From Kiritimatiellia bacterium (GTDB lineage Bacteria; Verrucomicrobiota; Kiritimatiellia; RFP12; UBA1067): 24,651 nt of DNA. The position numbers and the translations under genes were made by a program. The stretch covers positions 1 to 24,651 of the forward strand of contig JBMNFY010000018.1 in the NCBI GenBank assembly GCA_050949565.1, in the 5' to 3' direction. Below, piece after piece: positions 1 to 24,651 of the stretch (positions are counted from its first letter, which is position 1; each line of letters starts with the position of its first letter). The notes beneath the pieces were generated by a model that worked only from the letters and a program-made list of their open reading frames with translations, was not told the DNA's origin and did not search any database.

Positions 1-1450
1 TTAGTGGAACAGCCTCAATGGCATAATCAAGACGATGAGCGTAAGCATTCTGTGAAATAATGTCGCCATCGAATGCTGTCGGGATTCTTGACGGTGTCAT
101 TTGGCTCACGATATTCCATGCAACTTTTCGTGCGTCACCGAAATAGGCGTCGCGACCGTCCGCTCTCTCAAGGTGGTTGAGATCAATCGAGGCGCTTTGC
201 AGAACCCCGGTGACATTTCTGAACCAGCGTTCTGACATTACAACCAAACGGCTCTTATCAGCCCCGTCACGTGTCACGCCAGCAAGAGAGAGAAAATGAT
301 TGGTCAGTGAATTAATATTGAATTTGCTAGCCGGAGCGAACGCATGGGTACCCAGATTGGGGATTGCGGTGATACTTTCTGTTTCCAGCGGATGTATGTT
401 CGGATTCGGATCATACGAGAGCGAAGAGAACGGCATGCGGTCGGGATTGGATTCCAGATCGGGGATTTGAGACTTGAGATCTTCGATCTTTTCATGATCG
501 ACGTGGGCGAACCAGTTGGTGACGTCGGCCTGGCTGAAACAGACACGCGGCAACTTTTGCGTGGTGGGGCCGGTGAGGAAGTGGTTGGCGTCGAGAAAAC
601 CGGAAACGTCGAAGACCGCGAAGGCGACGCGGGCGGCGGTGTCGCGCCAGGGCTCTCCTGGGACTTCGATGGAATGCCACGATGAGCGGAAAGGAGAGGT
701 TGAGGAGGTGAGGTCAATGCCGTTCGTGAGCGCGGGCGGAATCAGTGCACGGACTTCGGGTGTGAGCAGGTTGACGGTCCATTGATCACGCATTTCAGAG
801 GTGGTGAATTCGGGGGTGGGGGGAGAGACTGGAGGGGCGCTTTTTTGTATCGGCGGTGAGGCGAGAACGCCGGGGGCTTGGAATTCGACGGAATTAGGCC
901 CTGTAGGATTTTCGATGTTGTCCCCCTCCCATTTGTCTGAAAACCAGCGGCCGACCGGCGCGAGGCGCTGGGGGACAGGCGAGCCGGAATCAACGGAAAA
1001 GGGTGCGTCGGCGAAATTGGCGGTGCAGAAAGCGTCCTCGACCGTGCGCATGGCGAGGTGCAGCGCTTCGTTGAGCTGGTTGCGCGCCGCCAGGCGGTGC
1101 GTTGCGGCGGCGGTGGCCTGCTGCTGCAGGCGGGTGGCGGCCAGGAAGGTGACGGCCATGACGCTGAGCACGGTCAGGATGCCGAGCGTGACCAGCAGCG
1201 TCGCGCCGCGCCGTGCGTCAGCGCGACGCGGATATGGGAGGGACGAGCGTCCGCTCGTCCGCGGGCAAGCGACGCTTGCCCCTCCCAGTGCTCCGCGAGC
1301 CGACTTGTGAGGGGGAGAGACGAGCGTCCGCCCGTCTGCGGGCAAGCGACGCTTACCCCTCCCGGCGCCCTGCGGGCCGGCTTGTGAGGGAGAGGGACGA
1401 GCGTCCCGGTGCTTCGCGGGCCGGCTTGTTAGCTTACCAGAGCAGATCAT
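1..1450 (-). CDS. PilX/GspK-like minor pseudopilin, truncated by the window edge at its 3' end (absent from the ORF track)
   Basis: Hand translation gives ...RRG|ATLLVTLGILTVLSVMAVTFLAATR..., a K/X-type helix lacking Glu5, with Gly-1 at 1205-1207. The frame reads ...LDYAIEAVPL at base 1. An in-frame ATG at 1450 has GGAGG 8 nt upstream. It is the last of the H-I-J-K series. Confidence 0.8.
   Translation of the reverse strand, partial: MICSGKLTSRPAKHRDARPSPSQAGPQGAGRGKRRLPADGRTLVSPPHKSARGALGGASVACPRTSGRSSLPYPRRADARRGATLLVTLGILTVLSVMAVTFLAATRLQQQATAAATHRLAARNQLNEALHLAMRTVEDAFCTANFADAPFSVDSGSPVPQRLAPVGRWFSDKWEGDNIENPTGPNSVEFQAPGVLASPPIQKSAPPVSPPTPEFTTSEMRDQWTVNLLTPEVRALIPPALTNGIDLTSSTSPFRSSWHSIEVPGEPWRDTAARVAFAVFDVSGFLDANHFLTGPTTQKLPRVCFSQADVTNWFAHVDHEKIEDLKSQIPDLESNPDRMPFSSLSYDPNPNIHPLETESITAIPNLGTHAFAPASKFNINSLTNHFLSLAGVTRDGADKSRLVVMSERWFRNVTGVLQSASIDLNHLERADGRDAYFGDARKVAWNIVSQMTPSRIPTAFDGDIISQNAYAHRLDYAIEAVPL
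1236..1286. repeat. REP element, family 1 (three-way hairpin), copy inside the PilX-like leader
   Basis: GGGAG/CTCCC outer stem enclosing GGACGAGC-gtcc-GCTCGTCC and GGGCAAGC-gac-GCTTGCCC. Degenerate copies follow at ~1311-1363 and ~1389-1408. Confidence 0.85.
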
Positions 1451-1832
1451 TCAAGAATCCTCCGAATGGCCATTCGTCTGCATTCGCGACTAAACCGCGA
1501 CGAACAGGATTGTTCCGCACGTACTCCCATTTCTCGTGATAGTTTTCACCTCGTCGTAATTGCGTATCCCAGCAATCTCGTTGGAATATCGGCGATTTTT
1601 GCGTTTTATTTCGCGAGGGAGGGACGAGCGTCCGCTCGTCCGCGGGCAAGCGGACGCTTGCCCCTCCCAGTGCTCCGCGAGCCGACTTGTGAGGGGGAGA
1701 GACGAGCGTCCGCCCGTCTGCGGGCAAGCGACGCTTACCCCTCCCGGCGCCCTGCGGGCCGGCTTGTGAGGGAGAGGGACGAGCGTCCCGGTGCTTCGCG
1801 GGCCGGCTTGTTAGCTTACCAGAGCAGATCAT
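1434..1832 (-). pseudogene. Chimeric ORF created by the duplication: PilX-leader start fused to the RAYT C-terminal fragment
   Basis: The N-terminus equals the 1450 leader (MICSGKL...) and the C-terminus is identical to the RAYT end (...YVRNNPVRRGLV...LLW). It lacks the HUH motif. Confidence 0.7.
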
Positions 1833-2373
1833 TCAAGAATCCTCCGAATGGCCATTCGTCTGCATTCGCGACTAAACCGCGACGAACAGGATTGTTCCGC
1901 ACGTACTCCCATTTCTCGTGATAGTTTTCACCTCGTCGTAATTGCGTATCCCAGCAATCTCGTTGGAATATCGGCGATTTTTGCGTTTTATTTCGCGAGG
2001 GAGGGACGAGCGTCCGCTCGTCCGCGGGCAAGCGGACGCTTGCCCCTCCCAGCGCTCCGCGAACCGCACGTGTGACTAGGGATTTCCAATACCGCACCCA
2101 TTTGGCCACATTCTCGGCATCCGGTGATGCGGGCGCGCAGAAAAGGTGGATATGATCCGGCATCAGTACGTACGCACCTACCGTGTGTGATGTCGCCGAT
2201 GCCCATGCATCGACAAGAACGCGGTGCGTGAACGGAGTCGCGAATGTGTTTGCGAGGCGATCCGCCGCGCAAACTGTCACAAAAAGAATCACCGGCGTGT
2301 TGAAACGTGTCACGTTCGGAAGATGCGCTGGATGGCTGCGGTTGGCATTGACTCTGTCGTGGTCGTTCACCAT
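1816..2373 (-). CDS. REP-associated tyrosine transposase (RAYT, Y1 HUH / IS200-IS605 superfamily)
   Basis: Motifs FVTVC, YVLMPDHIHLF (HUH) and YVRNNPVRRGLV..W, flanked by REPs. ATG 2373 is preferred over 2697 because the longer start overlaps the upstream gene and reads through a REP. Confidence 0.9.
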   Translation of the reverse strand: MVNDHDRVNANRSHPAHLPNVTRFNTPVILFVTVCAADRLANTFATPFTHRVLVDAWASATSHTVGAYVLMPDHIHLFCAPASPDAENVAKWVRYWKSLVTRAVRGALGGASVRLPADERTLVPPSRNKTQKSPIFQRDCWDTQLRRGENYHEKWEYVRNNPVRRGLVANADEWPFGGFLNDLLW

Positions 2374-11083: not shown

Positions 11084-11281
11084 GGTTTCAGGGTTTCGGG
11101 GTTTCGGGGTTTCGGGGTTTCGGGGTTTCAGGGTTTCGGGGTTTCAGGGTTTCGGGGTTTCGGGGTTTCGGGGTTTCAGGGTTTCGGGATTTCAGGGTTT
11201 CGGGGTTTCAGGGTTTCGGGGTTTCGGGGTTTCGGGGTTTCGGGGTTTCGGGGTTTCAGGGTTTCGGGGTTTCAGGGTTTC
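11084..11281. repeat. Octamer array GGTTTC(G/A)G x ~25
   Basis: Direct reading shows 198 bp with period 8. One extra unit at 11070 abuts the pilO-like ATG. Confidence 0.95.
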
Positions 11282-16936: not shown

Positions 16937-17126
16937 AAGCGTCGGTGCTAAGGCAAGCGCTCAGGTTGGGTTTTTGTTCGGAAAGCGAGGGAATCCGGGC
17001 GGCCGCAAGCCGCCGGGGTCATGAAGCATGGATACAGTAGTAGGCAGATGGCGGGATAAATACGACGCAAAGGTGCGTTGTCGACAACACAGTCGCGAGG
17101 TCGGAATCGGAGGCTTGCGTTTACGG

Positions 17127-19277
17127 ATGGCCTCCGGCTGGCTCGGGGGATTGTTGGTCGTTGCACTGGCCGCTTCAGCGGTTGCGCAGGCGCCGTCCGC
17201 TGTGAAGGCGCGCCCGGCTTGGAATGTGGCGGAGGCTACGGCGCGGCTGATCGTTACAAAAGAACAGGATGATTTCTTTTTAACGCGCCTGCCGGCGCGG
17301 ACCGGTGACAAGCCGGTGGCTGCGGTACGCGCGTTTGTTTTGACCAACGAGGTGATGACGCGGGTAGTCTGGTCGGACGAGAGTCAGGTGACCGTGATGG
17401 TTGACGTGCGCGACGCCAAGCGCGGGCAGTTGGTCAAGATTTATGCGGTGCCGGGCGACAAGCGGGCCGAGCCGGGGCCCTCCACCCTTGTGGACCCGAC
17501 GCCGTTGCGCGGGCGCGCCCAGCGTACGGCGGGCATGGACCTGCCGCGCTCGTTGGCGGACGTGCAGATGTTGGAGACACGCGTCGATGGCCGTCCGATC
17601 TGGTTCACGGTGAGCGATTCGAGCAAACTGCCCACCACCTTCAAGGATTGGTATCGCGGTGATTGGACGCGCAAGAACCACTTGGTTGACCTGCAGACGT
17701 GGCTGGTGATTCCCGTTGCCGGCCGTTACCGCTTCGGTTTGGCCGGTGTGGCATCAGCCTGGCTGCTGATCGACGGCCGCCCGGTCTTGGAGCATCCGGC
17801 ACACCAGCCGTACGACAAATGGACCTCCGGCGAGGATGTGCTGCTTGAGCCCGGTCTGCGCCGCTTGCAGGTGCGTACGGTCTGCCGTCAGGAGATCGAC
17901 ACCGGGCTCGCCTGGAAACGCGCAGATGAGCCGGGCGCGGCAACCAACATGGTCATGCTGACCGGCGGCGACTTACGCGAAGGCCGCTGGGAAACGCTCG
18001 ACCGCATCGTACATCCCTTCGCGACCGCCGAGAGCGGCGCCGCGTATCGTTTTGCGGGCGTCGACGAGGTGTTCGTGCCTTTCACGCTCAAGGACGGTTC
18101 ATCCTGCTGGGGCACGAATCATGTTGCGCATTGGCGTGTGCGCACAGGTCAGGAGTTGGGAAGTGGCGGGACGTTGGCGACCGTCTTCAGAAAGAGCCAA
18201 TTACCGGCCGGCGTGACGGTGACCGCTGCGGCGGCCAGTGGCGAGACAGCGGGCTATGAGGCTGTCTTGGCCTATGACGGTCCGGTGTGGTCCGAAGCCG
18301 AGGTGTCGACACGCATCACCGGTATCCCCGCTGCCTGTTACGTGGATGACCGGGTGCATCCGATCATCCGTGTCCGCACGACGGCCGCCGATGGTTTGCC
18401 GTATGATTTGGTTTGCGACTTTGAGTTTACCGACGGTTCGCGCACGAACCGGACCGACCAACTGGTGACGGACAGGGGCTGGGCGCGCGTCCATCTCAAC
18501 GAGATGGAGGCCGGGACGCTGGCGCGCCTCTCTTGGTCGCTGCGCCATCACGATGTCGAGGTCAACCACGGCGCGGCGCGTTTCCTGCGCGAGCCGTTCA
18601 CCTGCCTGCCGGACACGGTTTCTGGCGAGACGCTCAAGTGCGGCGATGAATTTGTTGTGCTGGTCGCCTCCAAAGCATCGCGCGGCGATCCGGTGGAGCC
18701 GACGGACGTCCTTTCCGGCACGAATGGCGTGGTGCTGCTGGACGGTTTTATTTATGATGTCGCCGCAGATCGCGATGATGCACTGCCCTGGCGGGTGCTG
18801 GACCTGCGGGAGATTGAGGAGCACGAAGCCGCCTCGGGCACATCGTTGCTTTTGCCGCTTGCCTCGTTGAATGACATTGTTCCGGCGTCGGCGGCGGTGG
18901 TCGCCCCGTCGTTGCAGGCACTCAGCCGTGAGGGGGGGACCGACGGCTTTGAGCGCCGTCTGTCAGCTTTGACCGGTCTGCTTGCTGGTCCGGCTGGTGG
19001 CAGTCCGCGCGTGGTGCTGGTCGTGCCGCCGCCATTCGACGTGCTGCCGGGTTGCGGTTGCCAGCCGGGCGCGGAGCCCTGTCCGCATGCGGCAGAGGCG
19101 CGGCCGTACGCCGAGATGGTGGTGCGCGTCGCGGATGCTCACGGCGTCGAGACGGTTGATCTCTTCACCGCCTTCCAGACGTTTGACCACGGTGAGCCGC
19201 TGGTATCCAACGGTCGGCTCACGCCTGCGGGCGCGGCCTTGGCCGAAAGCCTGATCCAAAAGAAGCTCGGATACTAA
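17127..19277 (+). CDS. Large exported hypothetical protein (possible PA14-like and SGNH-like domains)
   Basis: Long ORF with signal peptide ...LAASAVAQA, WLVIPVAGRYRF..AWLLIDGRPV (PA14-like) and C-terminal VVLVVPPP...VDLF...LTPAG (SGNH-like). The start is uncertain (17028 or 17127). Confidence 0.7.
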   Translation: MASGWLGGLLVVALAASAVAQAPSAVKARPAWNVAEATARLIVTKEQDDFFLTRLPARTGDKPVAAVRAFVLTNEVMTRVVWSDESQVTVMVDVRDAKRGQLVKIYAVPGDKRAEPGPSTLVDPTPLRGRAQRTAGMDLPRSLADVQMLETRVDGRPIWFTVSDSSKLPTTFKDWYRGDWTRKNHLVDLQTWLVIPVAGRYRFGLAGVASAWLLIDGRPVLEHPAHQPYDKWTSGEDVLLEPGLRRLQVRTVCRQEIDTGLAWKRADEPGAATNMVMLTGGDLREGRWETLDRIVHPFATAESGAAYRFAGVDEVFVPFTLKDGSSCWGTNHVAHWRVRTGQELGSGGTLATVFRKSQLPAGVTVTAAAASGETAGYEAVLAYDGPVWSEAEVSTRITGIPAACYVDDRVHPIIRVRTTAADGLPYDLVCDFEFTDGSRTNRTDQLVTDRGWARVHLNEMEAGTLARLSWSLRHHDVEVNHGAARFLREPFTCLPDTVSGETLKCGDEFVVLVASKASRGDPVEPTDVLSGTNGVVLLDGFIYDVAADRDDALPWRVLDLREIEEHEAASGTSLLLPLASLNDIVPASAAVVAPSLQALSREGGTDGFERRLSALTGLLAGPAGGSPRVVLVVPPPFDVLPGCGCQPGAEPCPHAAEARPYAEMVVRVADAHGVETVDLFTAFQTFDHGEPLVSNGRLTPAGAALAESLIQKKLGY

Positions 19278-19351
19278 AAGCACTGCTCGGGTTTATTTAA
19301 CGCAGAGGCGCAGAGACGCAGAGATTTTTTGGGGGGCGCTGCTTGGGTTTG

Positions 19352-20732
19352 TTTAACGCAGAGGCGCAGAGTTTTTTTGGGGGTGGCTGCGGGTTTTCGC
19401 ATCCACAGATTACACAGATTACGCAGATTTTTTAGGGGGCAGGGATCGGGTTTATTTCACCACGAAGGCACGAAGGGCACGAAGGTTTTTTGGGGGGCAT
19501 GGCTGCGGGGTTTTTTATCCACAGATTACACAGATTACGCATATTTTTGGGAGCGGGGAGCGGGTTTATTTAACCACGGAATACACGGAACACACGGAAA
19601 GGCATGGCTCGGCTTTTCATGAAGTTTCATGTGTTTCATGGTTCGGGCTTATTTAACGCAGAGGCGCAGAGTTTTTTTGGGGGTGGCTGCGGGTTTTCGC
19701 ATCCACAGATTACACAGATTACGCAGATTTTTTAGGGGGCAGGGATCGGGTTTATTTCACCACGAAGGCACGAAGGGCACGAAGGTTTTTTGGGGGGCAT
19801 GGCTGCGGGGTTTTTTATCCACAGATTACACAGATTACGCATATTTTTGGGAGCGGGGAGCGGGTTTATTTAACCACGGAATACACGGAACACACGGAAA
19901 GGCATGGCTCGGCTTTTCATGAAGTTTCATGTGTTTCATGGTTCGGGCTTATTTAACGCAGAGGCGCAGAGTTTTTTTGGGGGTGGCTGCGGGTTTTCGC
20001 ATCCACAGATTACACAGATTACGCAGATTTTTTAGGGGGCAGGGATCGGGTTTATTTCACCACGAAGGCACGAAGGGCACGAAGGTTTTTTGGGGGGCAT
20101 GGCTGCGGGGTTTTTTATCCACAGATTACACAGATTACGCATATTTTTGGGAGCGGGGAGCGGGTTTATTTAACCACGGAATACACGGAACACACGGAAA
20201 GGCATGGCTCGGCTTTTCATGAAGTTTCATGTGTTTCATGGTTCGGGCTTATTTAACGCAGAGGCGCAGAGTTTTTTTGGGGGTGGCTGCGGGTTTTCGC
20301 ATCCACAGATTACACAGATTACGCAGATTTTTTAGGGGGCAGGGATCGGGTTTATTTCACCACGAAGGCACGAAGGGCACGAAGGTTTTTTGGGGGGCAT
20401 GGCTGCGGGGTTTTTTATCCACAGATTACACAGATTACGCATATTTTTGGGAGCGGGGAGCGGGTTTATTTAACCACGGAATACACGGAACACACGGAAA
20501 GGCATGGCTCGGCTTTTCATGAAGTTTCATGTGTTTCATGGTTCGGGCTTATTTAACGCAGAGGCGCAGAGTTTTTTTGGGGGTGGCTGCGGGTTTTCGC
20601 ATCCACAGATTACACAGATTACGCAGATTTTTTAGGGGGCAGGGATCGGGTTTATTTCACCACGAAGGCACGAAGGGCACGAAGGTTTTTTGGGGGGCAT
20701 GGCTGCGGGGTTTTTTATCCACAGATTACACA
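19352..20732. repeat. 300-bp tandem repeat, 4.6 identical units before the IS110 insertion
   Basis: Units start at 19352, 19652, 19952, 20252 and 20552, and each is made of six short-repeat modules. Confidence 0.95.
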
Positions 20733-20882
20733 AGTATGTGGGTAGTCAAGTCCCTTTGTCGCTTTCGTCGGTTTTGTCCATTTCTTTTTCTTTGACAGTG
20801 GATTGTGGACAGACGCGCCTCTGTCCGGCTTTACGATAGGTTTACACTTTCTTCTTGAAGTCTAAGAAGAAAGCGGGTAGCA

Positions 20883-21275
20883 ATGAAGGACAGAATGAGG
20901 TACAGTGAAGCGTTCAAACTCAAGGTAATGGAGGAGCTGAGGGATGCAAAATGGAAGTCAGTTCAGGAGGCCGCCAAGGCATATGGAATTTCGGAGATGT
21001 CGGTCTACAACTGGATGCACAAGCTCGGCTTCGAACATCTGAAAGGAAGGCTCGTTTACGTGAAGACACGGACGGAATTGGATCGGATCAAGGAGCTCGA
21101 GGCGGAGAACCTCCGCCTCAAGCAGAGCCTCGCGGACGAGGTGCTCGACAACAGGCTGAACCAGGCGTTTCTTCGGATCGCCTGCCGGCGGGCCGGGACG
21201 ACCGTCGAAGATCTAAAAAAAAAGAATGGTGGGATGCCGCCCACGACACCCACGAGCGGGATGGCCTGCCAGTGA
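20883..21275 (+). CDS. IS3 transposase OrfA (HTH + leucine zipper)
   Basis: RYSEAFKLKV, AAKAYGISEMSVYNW and RIKELEAENLRLK. Confidence 0.9.
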   Translation: MKDRMRYSEAFKLKVMEELRDAKWKSVQEAAKAYGISEMSVYNWMHKLGFEHLKGRLVYVKTRTELDRIKELEAENLRLKQSLADEVLDNRLNQAFLRIACRRAGTTVEDLKKKNGGMPPTTPTSGMACQ

Positions 21276-22102
21276 CGAGGCTTTGCGCCAGATGTGGAAA
21301 GAGCACGGTCGCCTACTACAAGGGCCGCAAGGCGCGCGAGAAGCGCGTCGGGCGGGAAGACGTCATTCTTCTGCTGGCCCGTCGCGAACGCATTGTCAAC
21401 CCGATGGCCGGCTGTAAGAAAGTGCTTTTCGCCATCCGGCCGGAAATGGCCGAGGCGGGGATCTCGATGGGCGTCAACAGCTTCTACAAGCTGATGAAGG
21501 AGAACGGCATGATGGTGCCGAAACGCAAGAAATACAGCTGCAAGACGACGCGGCAGGACAAGTCTCTGGCGCCTTCGCCGAATCTGGTCAAGGACATGGA
21601 GATCAATGCTCCCGATCAGGCGGTGTGCTCGGACATCACGTACATCTACACGGAAGAGGGGTTCCTGTTCCTTTCACTGATGATGGACATGTTCGTGCGC
21701 GACATCGTCGGCTGGGCGGTCTGCGACTCGCTGAAGGCCGAGGGCCCCCTGGCCGCGCTGGAGATGGCGAGCCGTGCGCTGAAGCCGGGAGCGAAACCCG
21801 TGGCGCACTCCGACCGCGGCTGCCAGTACGCTTCGCACGCCTACCGCGAGGCGCTCGAGAAGCTCGGCTGGCGGTCCAGCATGACGGAAGAACTCCACTG
21901 CTACGAGAATGCGATGGCGGAGCGCCTGAACGGCATTCTCAAGCATGAGTATTTCCTCAACACGCACTTCAAGACGAAGAAGGAAGCGATCAAGGCGATC
22001 AAAGAGGCGATCCGGATCTACAACACGCGCAGGCTGCACGAGAAGTGTGGCTTCAAGACGCCGGCGGCGTTCCGTGAGGAGACGATGAAAAAAGTTGCAT
22101 GA
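21215..22102 (+). CDS. IS3 transposase OrfB (DDE), expressed by -1 frameshift
   Basis: A9G slippery run at 21215-21224 followed by a GTGGG/CCCAC hairpin, in the -1 frame. Motifs SDITY, HSDRGCQY, ENAMAERLNGILKHE and YNTRRLH. Confidence 0.9.
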   Translation, partial: KKKEWWDAAHDTHERDGLPVTRLCARCGKSTVAYYKGRKAREKRVGREDVILLLARRERIVNPMAGCKKVLFAIRPEMAEAGISMGVNSFYKLMKENGMMVPKRKKYSCKTTRQDKSLAPSPNLVKDMEINAPDQAVCSDITYIYTEEGFLFLSLMMDMFVRDIVGWAVCDSLKAEGPLAALEMASRALKPGAKPVAHSDRGCQYASHAYREALEKLGWRSSMTEELHCYENAMAERLNGILKHEYFLNTHFKTKKEAIKAIKEAIRIYNTRRLHEKCGFKTPAAFREETMKKVA

Positions 22103-22258
22103 GGTCGGCGGCCGCCGCCCCCCCCGGGGGGGGCGCACCCCTTGAAGGGAAGCACATCAATGTTCAACCAACCATCAAGAACCAAGTGTTAACCTGGAGC
22201 CGTGACTTGACAGCAAACGCCAAAAGGCGCGCCTGTGCGGTTCGGGAGCCCGCCTTTT

Positions 22259-23455
22259 TCAGGATTGGGCTGCCGGCGCGGAACTTTCCGGGGGATAGAC
22301 CTGCGAGTGGAGCGCCTCGACGAACTCGGCGGGCTTTTTGTAGCCCAGCGCGGCGAGGTGTTCGCGCCCGACGGCGGTGGCGAGCTTGGCGAGCTTGCGG
22401 CGGAAGGACTTCTCGTCCTTCCGGTCGGGGACCGGGTGGCCCATCAGGATGTGCCAGGCGCGGACGACCATTTTCCGGGCCACGGCGCAGGTGACGACGT
22501 TGGCGGGCTTCCCGGAGGCGATCTTGCGGTACGCCCACTTCGCCATGTCGTCTTTGCCGTGGCGCAGGAAGCTCTTCGCCGCCTCGACCATGAGCGCCTT
22601 GAGGTCGGGCCGTCCATGGCTGCTGAGCTTGCGCCGCCCCCCGGCCTTCCCGCTTTCCGCGACGGACGGGTTGAGGCCGACGTAGCTGACCAGCTTCTTG
22701 GGGTTCGCGAAGCGGGACGCGTCCTCGACGAAGGTGAACAGGGCGAAGGCGACGATGAAGCGCACGCCGAGCATCTGCATCAGCCTCGTCATCCCGGGCG
22801 TTTCCGAGACGATGCGTGCGATGAGCTTCTCGTAGCGGCCGCGCAGATCCATGCTGTGCTCGTATTCGAGCAGGAGCGTCTCGAGGTGGAACTTCTCCTC
22901 CTGCGTCCAGCCGTAGCCGGCCACCTCCGCGCGCACGGCATCGGCCTTCCTGTGGAACGACTCCCTGGGCAGCTTCAGCCCGTGGCCGCTGCAGAAGGCC
23001 CAGATGCGGTTGGACCAGCGCGTCGAGTCCTTCACGGCGTTGCGGTGGCCGAAGAAGATGTCGCGCCAGTGCTGGTGGCGCGGGGAGGGGACGTGGACGC
23101 GGCGCGTCCCGCCCCGGGCGTGGGCGAACGCGAGGTTCTGCGCGTCGATGCGGTCGTTGACCCGGTCGGAGCGGGCCCGCCCCGCGAGCGTGTCGGAGGC
23201 GAGCACCTCCGCGCGCTGCCCGACGGCCCCGAGGCGGCGGACGATGGAGAAGGCGTTCGTGGACGCCTCCAGCACGGTCAGCGCCCCCGCCGGGACCTGC
23301 TTCCTGTAGGTGTTTTCGAGCGAGTCGAGGTCGGTCGTGATGTTCTTGATGACGACGGGGTCCGAGCCGAGCCGCCACCGGGTGACGCACAGGGAGATCT
23401 TTTCGCTGTGCGCGTCCATCCCGACCAGAATTGTCTCTTGTGCTGTGTCGGTCAT
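22259..23455 (-). CDS. IS110-family DEDD transposase/recombinase
   Basis: VGMDAH, VLEAS, NDRIDA and FANPKKLVSYVGLNPSVAESG. ATG 23455 has AGGA upstream. Confidence 0.93.
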   Translation of the reverse strand: MTDTAQETILVGMDAHSEKISLCVTRWRLGSDPVVIKNITTDLDSLENTYRKQVPAGALTVLEASTNAFSIVRRLGAVGQRAEVLASDTLAGRARSDRVNDRIDAQNLAFAHARGGTRRVHVPSPRHQHWRDIFFGHRNAVKDSTRWSNRIWAFCSGHGLKLPRESFHRKADAVRAEVAGYGWTQEEKFHLETLLLEYEHSMDLRGRYEKLIARIVSETPGMTRLMQMLGVRFIVAFALFTFVEDASRFANPKKLVSYVGLNPSVAESGKAGGRRKLSSHGRPDLKALMVEAAKSFLRHGKDDMAKWAYRKIASGKPANVVTCAVARKMVVRAWHILMGHPVPDRKDEKSFRRKLAKLATAVGREHLAALGYKKPAEFVEALHSQVYPPESSAPAAQS

Positions 23456-23513
23456 TTCCTTTATCCTGTATGGCGCTGTCGCACGTTGGGGCAGACGGGT
23501 CTGCATGAAGCAT

Positions 23514-23712
23514 ACAAGTATACGGGGTCTTTCGCCCCAAGCAGGTGGTTTCCGTCGGCGCTCAAACAGATTGGCGGGCAGTGAGCCCAATGTAATCTTC
23601 GAGCGTCTCCCATGCGGACAGCAAGTGGGTTACCAAGACCACCTGCTGCTTCGCATCATACCTCAACGTGCGGCAGTCTTTAAAGCCCCGTATACACGGT
23701 TCTTCTCAGAAC
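23514..23712 (-). ncRNA. Predicted IS110 bridge/seek RNA
   Basis: Nested 10-bp stems at 23518-27/23686-95 and 23540-49/23638-47. The inner loop carries ACAGATT (23566-72) and TGTAATCT (23591-98), matching opposite strands of the insertion target. The RNA ends are inferred. Confidence 0.7.
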
Positions 23713-23728
23713 GCCACCCACATTACCA

Positions 23729-23915
23729 ACAGATTACGCATATTTTTGGGAGCGGGGAGCGGGTTTATTTAACCACGGAATACACGGAACACACGGAAAG
23801 GCATGGCTCGGCTTTTCATGAAGTTTCATGTGTTTCATGGTTCGGGCTTATTTAACGCAGAGGCGCAGAGTTTTTTTGGGGGTGGCTGCGGGTTTTCGCA
23901 TCCACAGATTACACA
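23729..23915. repeat. Continuation of the 300-bp array between the two IS110 copies
   Basis: Resumes in register and matches the rest of the unit. Confidence 0.9.
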
Positions 23916-24651
23916 AGTATGTGGGTAGTCAAGTCCCTTTGTCGCTTTCGTCGGTTTTGTCCATTTCTTTTTCTTTGACAGTGGATTGTGGACAGACGCG
24001 CCTCTGTCCGGCTTTACGATAGGTTTACACTTTCTTCTTGAAGTCTAAGAAGAAAGCGGGTAGCAATGAAGGACAGAATGAGGTACAGTGAAGCGTTCAA
24101 ACTCAAGGTAATGGAGGAGCTGAGGGATGCAAAATGGAAGTCAGTTCAGGAGGCCGCCAAGGCATATGGAATTTCGGAGATGTCGGTCTACAACTGGATG
24201 CACAAGCTCGGCTTCGAACATCTGAAAGGAAGGCTCGTTTACGTGAAGACACGGACGGAATTGGATCGGATCAAGGAGCTCGAGGCGGAGAACCTCCGCC
24301 TCAAGCAGAGCCTCGCGGACGAGGTGCTCGACAACAGGCTGAACCAGGCGTTTCTTCGGATCGCCTGCCGGCGGGCCGGGACGACCGTCGAAGATCTAAA
24401 AAAAAAGAATGGTGGGATGCCGCCCACGACACCCACGAGCGGGATGGCCTGCCAGTGACGAGGCTTTGCGCCAGATGTGGAAAGAGCACGGTCGCCTACT
24501 ACAAGGGCCGCAAGGCGCGCGAGAAGCGCGTCGGGCGGGAAGACGTCATTCTTCTGCTGGCCCGTCGCGAACGCATTGTCAACCCGATGGCCGGCTGTAA
24601 GAAAGTGCTTTTCGCCATCCGGCCGGAAATGGCCGAGGCGGGGATCTCGAT
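23916..24651 (-). mobile_element. Second IS110::IS3 composite, truncated by the window edge (IS3 starts at 24005)
   Basis: Identical to 20733 onward at offset 3183. Confidence 0.88.
24066..24458 (+). CDS. IS3 OrfA, second copy (OrfB runs off the window)
   Basis: Identical to 20883-21275. Confidence 0.9.
   Translation: MKDRMRYSEAFKLKVMEELRDAKWKSVQEAAKAYGISEMSVYNWMHKLGFEHLKGRLVYVKTRTELDRIKELEAENLRLKQSLADEVLDNRLNQAFLRIACRRAGTTVEDLKKKNGGMPPTTPTSGMACQ

What the first reader, a model, noticed from the sequence alone, without database searches (positions are those of the whole stretch)
23514..23712. Bridge/seek RNA with readable target guides
Seen: the minus-strand RNA reads CGCUC-GAAGAUUACAUU-GGGCucacuGCCC-GCCAAUCUGUUU-GAGCG. 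AGAUUACA equals one strand of the target on one side of the core, and AAUCUGU equals the other strand across ACA-GATT. This loop nests in two perfect 10-bp stems spanning 178 nt. Candidate donor guides matching the circle junction CATTACCA-ACA-AGTATG are TTACCAA (23630-36) and ACAAGTAT (23514-21). The layout is nested rather than two side-by-side loops, and the guide order looks reversed relative to element orientation as I recall it for IS621. Inference: possibly a distinct programmable architecture.
Basis: partly seen in the sequence, partly recalled or inferred. Interest (0 to 1): 0.88.

Follow-up and report, generated by a model that had tools for sequence, protein, structure and literature searches.

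The report
Guide RNA gene of a transposon
The stretch encodes the guide ("bridge" or "seek") RNA of an IS110-family jumping gene; its target-reading loop is real, but its unusual guide order is the one already known from the IS1111 branch, and the proposed nested fold is only partly right.

Summary
Confirmed: 23729-23456 (minus strand) is the left-end non-coding region of an IS110-family element (20733-23729; transposase 23455-22259; an IS3-family IS sits in its right end). It holds an internal loop whose 5' strand is complementary to the right flank and whose 3' strand repeats the left flank plus core plus the first 2 nt of the element. Across relatives both strands track their own flanks (31 distinct guide pairs, 0 of 10000 permutations as good). 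ACAAGTAT (23514-21) is a donor guide: its 3 variable letters equal the element's last 3 nt in 37 of 37 loci. TTACCAA (23630-36) does not track the left end.

The consensus fold (76 sequences, 23 of 44 pairs with compensatory changes) puts the target arm and the donor arm side by side inside one long closing stem, not nested. The inner stem loses to a local hairpin.

It is the published IS1111 order, which I re-read in an IS5075 copy. Subterminal repeats with 6/3-nt extensions are also IS1111-like; only the RNA's position upstream of the transposase is atypical. Verdict: a new variant of a known kind. No RNA evidence beyond weak contig hints.

The parts
20733..23729 (-). IS110-family element as it stands in the window (left end at 23729, right end at 20733), including a nested IS3-family IS. 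The core dinucleotide TG flanks it at 23731-23730 and 20732-20731.
   Evidence: Ends come from the empty sites in the repeat and the intact copy L063. Contig joints 20729>23729 (empty site) and 20821>22213 (IS3-less form) support them.
20822..22212 (+). IS3-family IS (1391 bp) inserted in the right end of the IS110-family element. It is not part of the guide system. The IS3-less form has 7 nt here.
   Evidence: Other copies with these limits are in C10 and C5. Pfam rve and HTH_Tnp_1. The joint with 7 letters between appears in 4 of 4 runs. L063.
22259..23455 (-). Transposase / bridge recombinase gene, 398 aa (P0001).
   Evidence: NCBIfam NF033542 170.2 bits, cut-off 140. Pfam PF02371. D14, E63, D101 and D104 are invariant in 48 of 48; S268 is S in 42 and T in 6 of 48. 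S268 aligns with the ESG serine of IS621.
20744..20749 (-). -35 box TTGACT in the right end. After circularisation it lies 17 nt from TAATGT in the left end (junction promoter).
   Evidence: Read from the sequence. TTGAC[ATG], a 16-18 nt spacer and TAnnnT occur in 54 of 55 reconstructed junctions of relatives.
23720..23725 (-). -10 box TAATGT of the junction promoter. It overlaps the 6-nt terminal extension TTGGTA (23729-23724) and the subterminal repeat ATGTGGGT (23723-23716; partner ACCCACAT at 20743-20736).
23686..23712 (-).
   Evidence: P0 helix length with the cognate partner is 7.68 against 6.20 non-cognate, 0 of 10000 permutations as high. Compensatory change own/L055.
23655..23684 (-). 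Internal promoter-like site TTTAAA-18-TATGAT. Its spacer is the 5' strand of P1.
   Evidence: The hexamer keeps A2 and T6 in 76 of 76 sequences, and the -35 has at least 4 of 6 in 55 of 76. Function is inferred only.
23660..23676 (-). P1 5' strand. It pairs with 23493-23476 and closes the whole junction.
   Evidence: 14 pairs, most with compensatory changes (for example 66x289 GC 49 / AU 27).
23619..23650 (-). Hairpin H1.
   Evidence: The stem covaries (89x116 AU 63, GC 6, UA 3, GU 2). The loop does not track the left end.
23557..23607 (-). Target-binding arm. Basal stem 23607-23600 / 23563-23557. [quoted passage not shown] Hairpin 23588-23576. 3' strand GCCAAUCUGUUU 23575-23564 (left flank AAUC + core UG + UU, the first 2 nt of the element).
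23494..23556 (-). Donor arm. P3 GACGG 23556-23552 with CCGUC 23498-23494. Invariant 5' strand AAACCACCUGCUU 23551-23539. Hairpin H3 23538-23524. 3' strand GUAUACUUGUAU 23523-23512 (right-end AUACU + core UG). Mini hairpin 23511-23503.
   Evidence: P3 pair 209x275 is AU 42 / GC 33. The 3' strand against the right-end terminus is 37 of 37 and 0 of 10000.
23476..23493 (-). P1 3' strand, followed by the Shine-Dalgarno AAGGAA and the ATG at 23455.

Best explanation
The region is the gene for the guide RNA (bridge RNA / seekRNA) of an IS110-family element, transcribed on the minus strand in the same direction as the transposase. Shown by comparison: (1) One internal loop reads the insertion site. 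[quoted passage not shown] Its 3' strand has the sense of left flank + core TG + the first 2 nt of the element, so it pairs with the bottom strand and matches the left junction formed by insertion, like a handshake guide. (2) A second arm next to it carries AUACU-UG, which has the sense of the last 5 nt of the right end plus the core, and serves as a donor guide. (3) Both arms and a hairpin H1 sit in a junction closed by a 14-16 bp stem P1. Inferred: when the element circularises, TTGACT (right end) and TAATGT (left end) form a promoter that drives the RNA and the transposase. The RNA-protein complex then recombines the circle junction CATACT-TG-TTGGTAA with sites AATC-TG-(N)GTAATCT in the genome's tandem repeats. 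The polarity (top-strand complement first), the 8-bp subterminal repeats and the 6/3-nt terminal extensions are those of the IS1111 branch. Only the RNA's position upstream of the transposase differs. The guide for the left-end (RD) side of the donor is not identified. The leader-to-donor-arm pairing P0 competes with hairpin H3 and may gate the donor guide.
For: Family: NF033542 170 bits. DEDD residues are invariant in 48 of 48, and S268 aligns with the IS621 serine. Scaffold: 97 of 115 sequences (own + 114 loci) carry the CAUGGGAGA...CCACCUGC scaffold with hypervariable loop strands. Target loop (31 distinct guide pairs from 38 loci whose ends were located without using the guides): 5' strand reverse complement against right flank, longest common run 6.00 against 3.24 non-cognate, 0 of 10000 permutations; 3' strand same sense against left flank, 5.74 against 3.27, 0 of 10000. 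The wrong-sense controls are not significant (8084 and 9585 of 10000). Tail of the 3' strand against the first 2 nt of the element: both letters match in 67 of 72 records, in four combinations (TT, TC, CT, AT), 0 of 10000. Natural retargeting: L055 (98% protein identity) has GAUGAC for GAUUAC and sits at GTCATCT repeats. Donor guide: 37 of 37, six different 3-mers. Fold: 23 of 44 consensus pairs have compensatory changes, and many G-U pairs fix the strand. Junction promoter in 54 of 55 junctions. [quoted passage not shown]
Against: No direct RNA evidence. All runs available were assembled contigs, which cannot show starts, ends, strand or level. No Rfam family matches. In the window's own copy, the right-flank match sits 2 nt further from the core than in L021, L023 and L030, so in strict register only about 4 pairs form. 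The register of the 5' strand varies by 1-2 nt among relatives. The donor arm's 5' strand is invariant and only weakly complementary to the left end, and it does not follow 1-2 nt length changes there (by eye; no covariation signal for left-end positions 0-8). A two-sided donor loop is therefore not shown. The tail of the donor 3' strand does not track the right flank (3115 of 10000). Many relatives are metagenome contigs and are related to each other, so the permutation counts are not exact probabilities.
Confidence: 0.85

Rival explanations
1. The outer stem (P0) and inner stem (AGCAGGUGGU with ACCACCUGCU) enclose the target loop, and the donor is read by the H1-loop UUGGUAA and by AUACUUGU.
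For: Both 10-bp complements are perfect in the window. P0 is conserved with compensatory changes. The two 8-mers of the inner stem are nearly invariant and stay complementary (85.4% of cells paired). UGGUAA-like letters recur in the H1 loop (28 of 54 records with left end TGGTAA hold that hexamer).
Against: P1, H1, P3 and H3 all have compensatory support and cannot nest with P0 and the inner stem. Column 89 pairs with H1's 3' strand in 74 of 76 sequences, against 48 of 76 with the inner-stem partner. The H1 loop has the same sense as AUACUUGU, so both would read one DNA strand. It follows none of 6 variant left ends.
Confidence: 0.1
2. It is a target-only seekRNA. The AUACU-UG match to the right end is a by-product of the RNA helix P0 or of the subterminal repeat, not a donor guide.
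For: Part of AUAC lies inside P0 in the window's lineage. No left-end-side donor guide was found. The seekRNA paper describes target matches and a need for matching flanks at the donor (PMC11187229, passages).
Against: The three letters that vary lie beyond the subterminal repeat and match in 37 of 37 loci, with six variants. The match runs on through the core. In most lineages P0 stops before these letters. An IS5075 copy has AUAGAU (right end ATAGA + 1) at a similar place.
Confidence: 0.08
3. It is a canonical IS621-type bridge RNA, and the 'reversed order' is an artefact of the direct repeat in the target.
For: The window's target is two copies of GTAATCTGY, so each strand of the loop matches both flanks (cross tests are also above chance: 3.68 against 3.02, and 3.77 against 3.12).
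Against: Relatives with non-repetitive targets show the same assignment (L021, L025, L030, L031, L032, L072, L077 and others). Wrong-sense controls are null. The 3' strand continues into the element's first 2 nt.
Confidence: 0.03
4. It is a conserved 5' untranslated leader that only regulates transposase expression and has no guide function.
For: It lies directly upstream of the start codon. It holds promoter-like boxes and alternative helices.
Against: The hypervariable loop strands follow DNA outside the element. A leader has no reason to do that.
Confidence: 0.02

Closest known systems
IS1111-type seekRNA / bridge RNA (ISEc11, ISKpn4, ISPa11; IS4321/IS5075 elements)
   Same: The top-strand complement (right flank) lies 5' of the bottom-strand match (left flank), around a hairpin (PMC11187229 passages; IS5075 copy). 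Subterminal inverted repeats with asymmetric terminal extensions: 6 nt left and 3 nt right here, against 7 or 6 and 3 in the paper. A junction promoter. Donor-reading letters in a multi-branch loop (PMC11208160 section 12).
   Different: The RNA gene lies upstream of the transposase (273 nt left end, about 150 nt right end) instead of downstream. The repeats are 8-10 bp rather than the usual 11-13. The protein is 398 aa (330-350 in IS1111 per the paper) and only 22.5-22.9% identical to IS4321/IS5075 over residues 54-334. The paper notes a few IS1111 relatives with an upstream non-coding region (ISMtsp17), but no RNA was described for them in the passages I saw.
IS621 bridge RNA (IS110 group; PDB 8wt6)
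   Same: The RNA is encoded in the left end and driven by a promoter formed at the circle junction. It has two arms, each an internal loop around a hairpin. There is a dinucleotide core whose second letter is nearly fixed (G here, T in IS621). A 2-nt extension of one target guide matches the donor, like a handshake guide.
   Different: [quoted passage not shown] IS621 has 2-3 bp subterminal repeats. No closing stem P1, hairpin H1 or leader pseudoknot is described for it in what I read. Protein similarity is confined to residues 207-339 (E 6.8e-4).
Divergent bridge RNA covariance models (86 models, 32,190 loci; bioRxiv 10.64898/2026.10.21.760802)
   Same: The preprint states that many bridge RNA structures deviate from IS621 yet covary with target and donor (section 8 read).
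   Different: That survey selected neighbours with PF01548 + PF02371. P0001 and most listed relatives carry only PF02371, so this family may have been left out. Its figures and supplements were not visible to me.

Membership tests
IS110-family RNA-guided transposase (DEDD + Ser) | Match to the curated family model above its cut-off | tested here: met
   NF033542 170.2 bits against a cut-off of 140. PF02371 61.7 bits.
IS110-family RNA-guided transposase (DEDD + Ser) | RuvC-like DEDD residues and the serine nucleophile | tested here: met
   D14, E63, D101 and D104 in 48 of 48. S268 is S in 42 and T in 6 of 48, and aligns with the ESG serine of IS621 chain 8wt6_A. PF01548 itself was not reported at E <= 0.001 for P0001.
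Bridge RNA / seekRNA (general) | A non-coding RNA gene in an element end, with a loop whose two strands pair with opposite strands of the target on either side of the core | tested here: met
   31 guide pairs, 0 of 10000 for each strand, wrong-sense controls null.
Bridge RNA / seekRNA (general) | A donor-binding loop that reads both sides of the circle junction | tested here: inconclusive
   The right-end side is met (37 of 37). The left-end side was not found: the left end and the candidate strands are nearly invariant, and there is no covariation.
Bridge RNA / seekRNA (general) | The RNA is made and bound by the transposase | not testable with these tools
   Only assembled contigs of RNA libraries were available. 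Contigs cover the region in X15 and X16, which does not show transcription.
IS621-type (IS110 group) bridge RNA | [quoted passage not shown] | tested here: not met
   The order is reversed. The definition comes from PMC11208160 and PMC11208158 passages.
IS621-type (IS110 group) bridge RNA | RNA in a long left end; short (2-3 bp) subterminal repeats | tested here: inconclusive
   The left-end location is met (273 nt). The repeats are 8 bp (ATGTGGGT/ACCCACAT), so that part is not met.
IS1111 family | Subterminal inverted repeats with terminal extensions of 6-7 nt (left) and 3 nt (right) | tested here: met
   TTGGTA-ATGTGGGT ... ACCCACAT-ACT. The repeat is 8-10 bp in relatives, shorter than the usual 11-13 bp.
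IS1111 family | [quoted passage not shown] | tested here: met
   The paper's statement is, and the IS5075 copy is (one copy only).
IS1111 family | Long non-coding region downstream of the transposase | tested here: not met
   Upstream 273 nt. Downstream about 150 nt without the RNA scaffold. The paper lists a few exceptions.
IS1111 family | Transposase related to that of IS1111 over its full length (tree placement) | not tested
   Only pairwise figures: 22.5-22.9% identity to IS4321/IS5075 over residues 54-334, against a C-terminal-only match to IS621. No labelled IS621, IS110 or ISEc21 sequences could be fetched for a tree.

The most novel reading that the evidence does not exclude
This is a third configuration of IS110-family guide systems. 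It combines an IS1111-polarity guide RNA with a position at the left end, upstream of the transposase. It has two mutually exclusive, both-covarying helices at the donor arm: leader P0 against hairpin H3. It also has two promoters, one at the circle junction and one internal whose spacer is the 5' strand of P1. The RNA made from the circle and the RNA made from the integrated copy would then differ in fold, which would gate donor binding and so set the direction (insertion or excision).
Probability: 0.2. Interest if true: 0.7.

Novelty: new variant of a known kind. Interest (0 to 1): 0.5.

Why it matters
Bridge recombinases are being developed as programmable DNA-rearranging tools, and orthologues with different RNA layouts widen the choice. 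This clade was found mostly in Kiritimatiellae and Lentisphaerae genome bins and in digester, sludge and rumen metagenomes. It gives a well-aligned set of about 76 natural guide RNAs with readable targets. It links the IS1111 and IS110 layouts: same polarity and ends as IS1111, same RNA position as IS110. It also offers a testable case of competing helices at the donor guide. For the genome itself it is an ordinary, apparently active insertion sequence that lands in tandem repeats.

Tried and rejected
Rfam: no family at gathering score in the window. At E <= 10 on 23440-23740 there was only a Histone3 match on the + strand (E 0.017), taken as chance.

The IS3 inverted repeat as the insertion target. 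At first I read the IS3 end at 22212 as the IS110 boundary. I rejected this once other IS3 copies showed that the IS3 spans 20822-22212 and L063 showed the intact right end.

A guide for the left-end (RD) side. Mutual information between left-end positions and RNA columns gave only the known left-flank signal and scattered, probably clade-linked, values. By eye, the donor arm's 5' strand AAACCACCUGCUU pairs with G-TTGGT at only 5 of 6 positions, with a mismatch and a wobble. It does not follow 1-2 nt length changes of the left end in the L026, L031 and L101 lineages. The H1 loop was rejected as above.

The tail of the donor 3' strand as a handshake guide for the right flank: not significant (3115 of 10000).

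I re-tested it with anchoring on the C-run.

RNA evidence. X17 has no contig over 23316-23751. In X15 a 268-nt contig (23493-23747, 2 differing letters, a different outer flank) has word depth 62 against 10.5 for the transposase contig, while DNA run X1 is even (about 20). X16 shows no such excess (9.6 against about 10-12). Contigs cannot show level, strand or ends, so this is not used as evidence.

Phylogeny against IS621, ISEc21 and IS110: not done, because no labelled sequences were reachable. The control genomes gave tallies only. A covariance model was not built: the alignment has 314 columns and I expected calibration to exceed the time limit, so I did not try. No structure or complex prediction was run. 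The first internal-promoter scan inside one search was noisy and was replaced by the column-based count. The 18 of 115 sequences without the scaffold motif were not examined; several are truncated matches. Of the 97 with the motif, 76 entered the alignment. The rest were dropped because the locus ended inside the 254-nt stretch or the stretch was identical to one already kept. For one search only 38 loci qualified: left end starting TGG/TGA with at least 14 nt of flank, and an exact 7-nt subterminal repeat found downstream behind TTGAC. The clade with left end TGGTAATATATTGCG has imperfect repeats and fell out.

Supplements of the papers were closed. Supplementary Table 5 / Data 1 of PMC11208160 and Supplementary Fig. 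2 of PMC11187229 may already list this clade. That I found no description of a left-end-encoded, IS1111-polarity guide RNA rests only on searches and on the passages read.

Full report
What is there. The window is one whole contig (C18) of a 4.66-Mb, 21-contig genome. On the minus strand, 23455-22259 encodes a 398-aa protein (P0001). It matches the NCBIfam model 'IS110 family RNA-guided transposase' at 170.2 bits (cut-off 140) and Pfam PF02371. In an alignment with 47 relatives, D14, E63, D101 and D104 are invariant. S268 is S in 42 and T in 6 of 48, and it aligns with the ESG serine of the solved IS621 recombinase. The finding lies in the 273 nt between the element's left end (23729) and the start codon.

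Limits of the element. The 300-bp tandem repeat at 19345-20732 holds the uninterrupted site CCACAGATTAC-ACA-GATTACGC several times. In element orientation, the left junction reads GCGTAATC-TG-TTGGTAATG and the right junction CCCACATACT-TG-TGTAATCTG. The element therefore runs from 20733 to 23729, with the dinucleotide TG on both sides. Between the stop codon and the right terminus sits a 1391-bp IS3-family IS (20822-22212); other copies with exactly these limits are in C10 and C5. A metagenome contig (L063) holds the same element without the IS3, with 7 nt in its place. Contigs of 4 of 4 public runs join 20821 to 22213 with those 7 letters. Joined end to end, the termini give TTGACT, 17 nt, TAATGT. 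The same arrangement (TTGAC[ATG], 16-18 nt, TAnnnT) appears in 54 of 55 junctions reconstructed from relatives.

Relatives. A protein search gave 256 proteins at E <= 1e-10 among the 8000 candidates scored. Locus searches gave 34 loci from genome bins, mostly Kiritimatiellae, Lentisphaerae and Verrucomicrobia. They also gave 80 metagenome loci, kept from 120 relatives. Of 115 sequences (own + 114 loci), 97 carry the same scaffold upstream of the gene: constant stems and hypervariable strands at two places.

The target loop. I located element ends without using the guides: the left end by its TGGTA box, the right end by the reverse complement of the left subterminal repeat behind TTGAC. This gave 38 loci with 31 distinct guide pairs. 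The reverse complement of the 5' strand shares a run of 6.00 letters on average with its own right flank, against 3.24 with other loci's flanks. The 3' strand, in the same sense, shares 5.74 with its own left flank, against 3.27. No permutation of 10000 reached either value, and the wrong-sense controls were null. The 3' strand runs through the core into the element: its two letters after the core equal the first two letters of the left end in 67 of 72 records, in four letter combinations. L055, 98% identical in protein, has one changed letter in the 5' strand (GAUGAC for GAUUAC) and sits between GTCATCT repeats; this is natural retargeting. In the window's own lineage, the right-flank match GTAATCT begins one letter beyond the core, while in L021, L023 and L030 it begins at the core. 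The register of the 5' strand is thus loose by 1-2 nt.

Polarity. [quoted passage not shown] They also describe a 2-nt handshake guide behind the right target guide (PMC11208160 and PMC11208158, passages). The seekRNA paper states that in IS1111-type RNAs the top-strand complement comes first, and that IS110-type RNAs have the reverse order (PMC11187229, passages). I checked one IS5075 copy (L137). Its 255-nt downstream non-coding region has AAAACGGAA, the reverse complement of the first 9 nt of the right flank. A hairpin follows, and then ATATTT, the last 5 nt of the left flank plus one. This is the same layout as here. The termini also fit IS1111: 8-bp subterminal repeats (ATGTGGGT/ACCCACAT) with extensions of 6 nt (TTGGTA) and 3 nt (ACT). 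The paper gives 7 or 6 and 3. What does not fit is the position of the RNA, upstream rather than downstream; the paper mentions a few such exceptions without describing their RNA. If the target is turned round, the loop obeys the IS621 rule in every respect, including the handshake-like tail. The chemistry is therefore probably the same, and only the orientation of the gene module relative to the recombination site differs (inference).

The donor side. AUACUUGU (23521-23514) follows hairpin H3. The three letters that correspond to the 3-nt terminal extension of the right end equal it in 37 of 37 loci, in six variants: ACT, AGA, AGT, ACC, ACG, GCT. The match continues through the core. Where the DNA has C at the first core position, the RNA keeps U, which can still pair with G on the bottom strand. 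The hexamer TGGTAA is present in 28 of 54 records with that left end, and the loop follows none of the 6 variant left ends. No RNA column covaries with left-end positions 0-8, which hardly vary because they are also the -10 box. The guide for that side remains unknown.

Fold. RNAalifold on 76 distinct sequences gives 44 pairs, 23 of them with compensatory changes. The parts are: a closing stem P1 (23676-23660 with 23493-23476); a local hairpin H1; the target arm; and a donor arm closed by GACGG/CCGUC (209x275: AU 42, GC 33), which holds H3, the guide strand and a mini hairpin. The two arms stand side by side. Frequent G-U pairs (for example 226x243 UG in 76 of 76) fix the transcribed strand as the minus strand. 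It cannot be tested by covariation, and at its one variable pair it is worse than H1 (48 against 74 of 76). When anchored on the C-run, the leader forms a helix of 7.68 pairs with its own partner against 6.20 with others (0 of 10000). There are compensatory changes, such as GUAUAC/GUAUAC here against GUAUGC/GCAUAC in L055. No such helix was found in 9 of 76. It uses the same CCCC as H3, which also covaries (228x241 and 229x240). In L029 and L052 all three strands changed together. It crosses P1 and P3, so it is a pseudoknot or an alternative conformer, not an enclosing stem.

Other signals. A promoter-like site TTTAAA-18-TATGAT lies at 23684-23655. The hexamer keeps A2 and T6 in 76 of 76 sequences, and a -35 with at least 4 of 6 is present in 55 of 76. 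Its spacer is the 5' strand of P1, so an RNA started there would lack P1 and P0. This is the basis of the bolder reading and is untested.

Expression. Twenty of 24 listed runs hold the stretch, six of them RNA libraries, all kept as contigs. Such data cannot show transcription, so none is claimed.

Novelty. The kind (guide RNA of an IS110-family element) and the polarity (IS1111) are in print. A recent preprint reports 86 structural models of bridge RNAs, many unlike IS621. What I did not find in searches and in the passages read is this combination: IS1111-type ends and polarity, an RNA upstream of the transposase, a P1-closed junction, and a leader pseudoknot competing with a donor-arm hairpin. 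Supplements were closed and may hold it. I rate it a new variant of a known kind, of moderate interest.

Noticed in passing
window 20822-22212: An IS3-family IS (orfA 20883-21275, orfB 20951-22102) is nested in the right end of the IS110-family element. It replaces 7 nt of the IS3-less form. Further copies are in C10 and C5, two of them in tandem in C5.
   Followed up: partly
window 23916-24651 and G000 C5:8099-12389: A second right-end tail plus IS3 starts at 23916, in the other site type of the repeat unit. This hints that the IS110::IS3 composite moved as a unit. The C5 copy has the same left flank as the window copy, so the assembly through the repeats is uncertain.
   Followed up: partly
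window 19345-20732: A 300-bp tandem repeat (4.6 copies, 99% matches) with open 97-aa frames. Each unit holds two target sites. The genome is rich in related tandem arrays.
   Followed up: no
G000 C17: about 1658990-1659020 (minus strand): A solo fragment of about 23 nt of the element's left end (TTGGTAATGTGGGTGGCGTTCTG) stands behind AAAAATCTG, with nothing else of the element. It may be a deletion footprint.
   Followed up: no
L038: about 200-260 nt after the stop codon: The right terminus TTGACGCAATACATAC is repeated three times in tandem in this relative.
   Followed up: no
window 23655-23684: An internal sigma-70-like promoter match. Its -10 is the near-invariant TATGAT motif and its spacer is the 5' strand of stem P1.
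   Followed up: partly
L137 2182-2187 (IS5075 copy): The apical loop of the IS5075 target hairpin holds CUCAUU, the reverse complement of letters 2-7 of that element's left end. This is a 6-nt match and may be chance.
   Followed up: no
window 17028-19277: A 749-aa open frame directly upstream of the tandem repeat has no Pfam match at E <= 0.001.
   Followed up: no
window 1236-2075 and 11084-11281: Further tandem arrays: period 382 (2.2 copies) and period 8 (GGTTTCGG, 24.8 copies).
   Followed up: no
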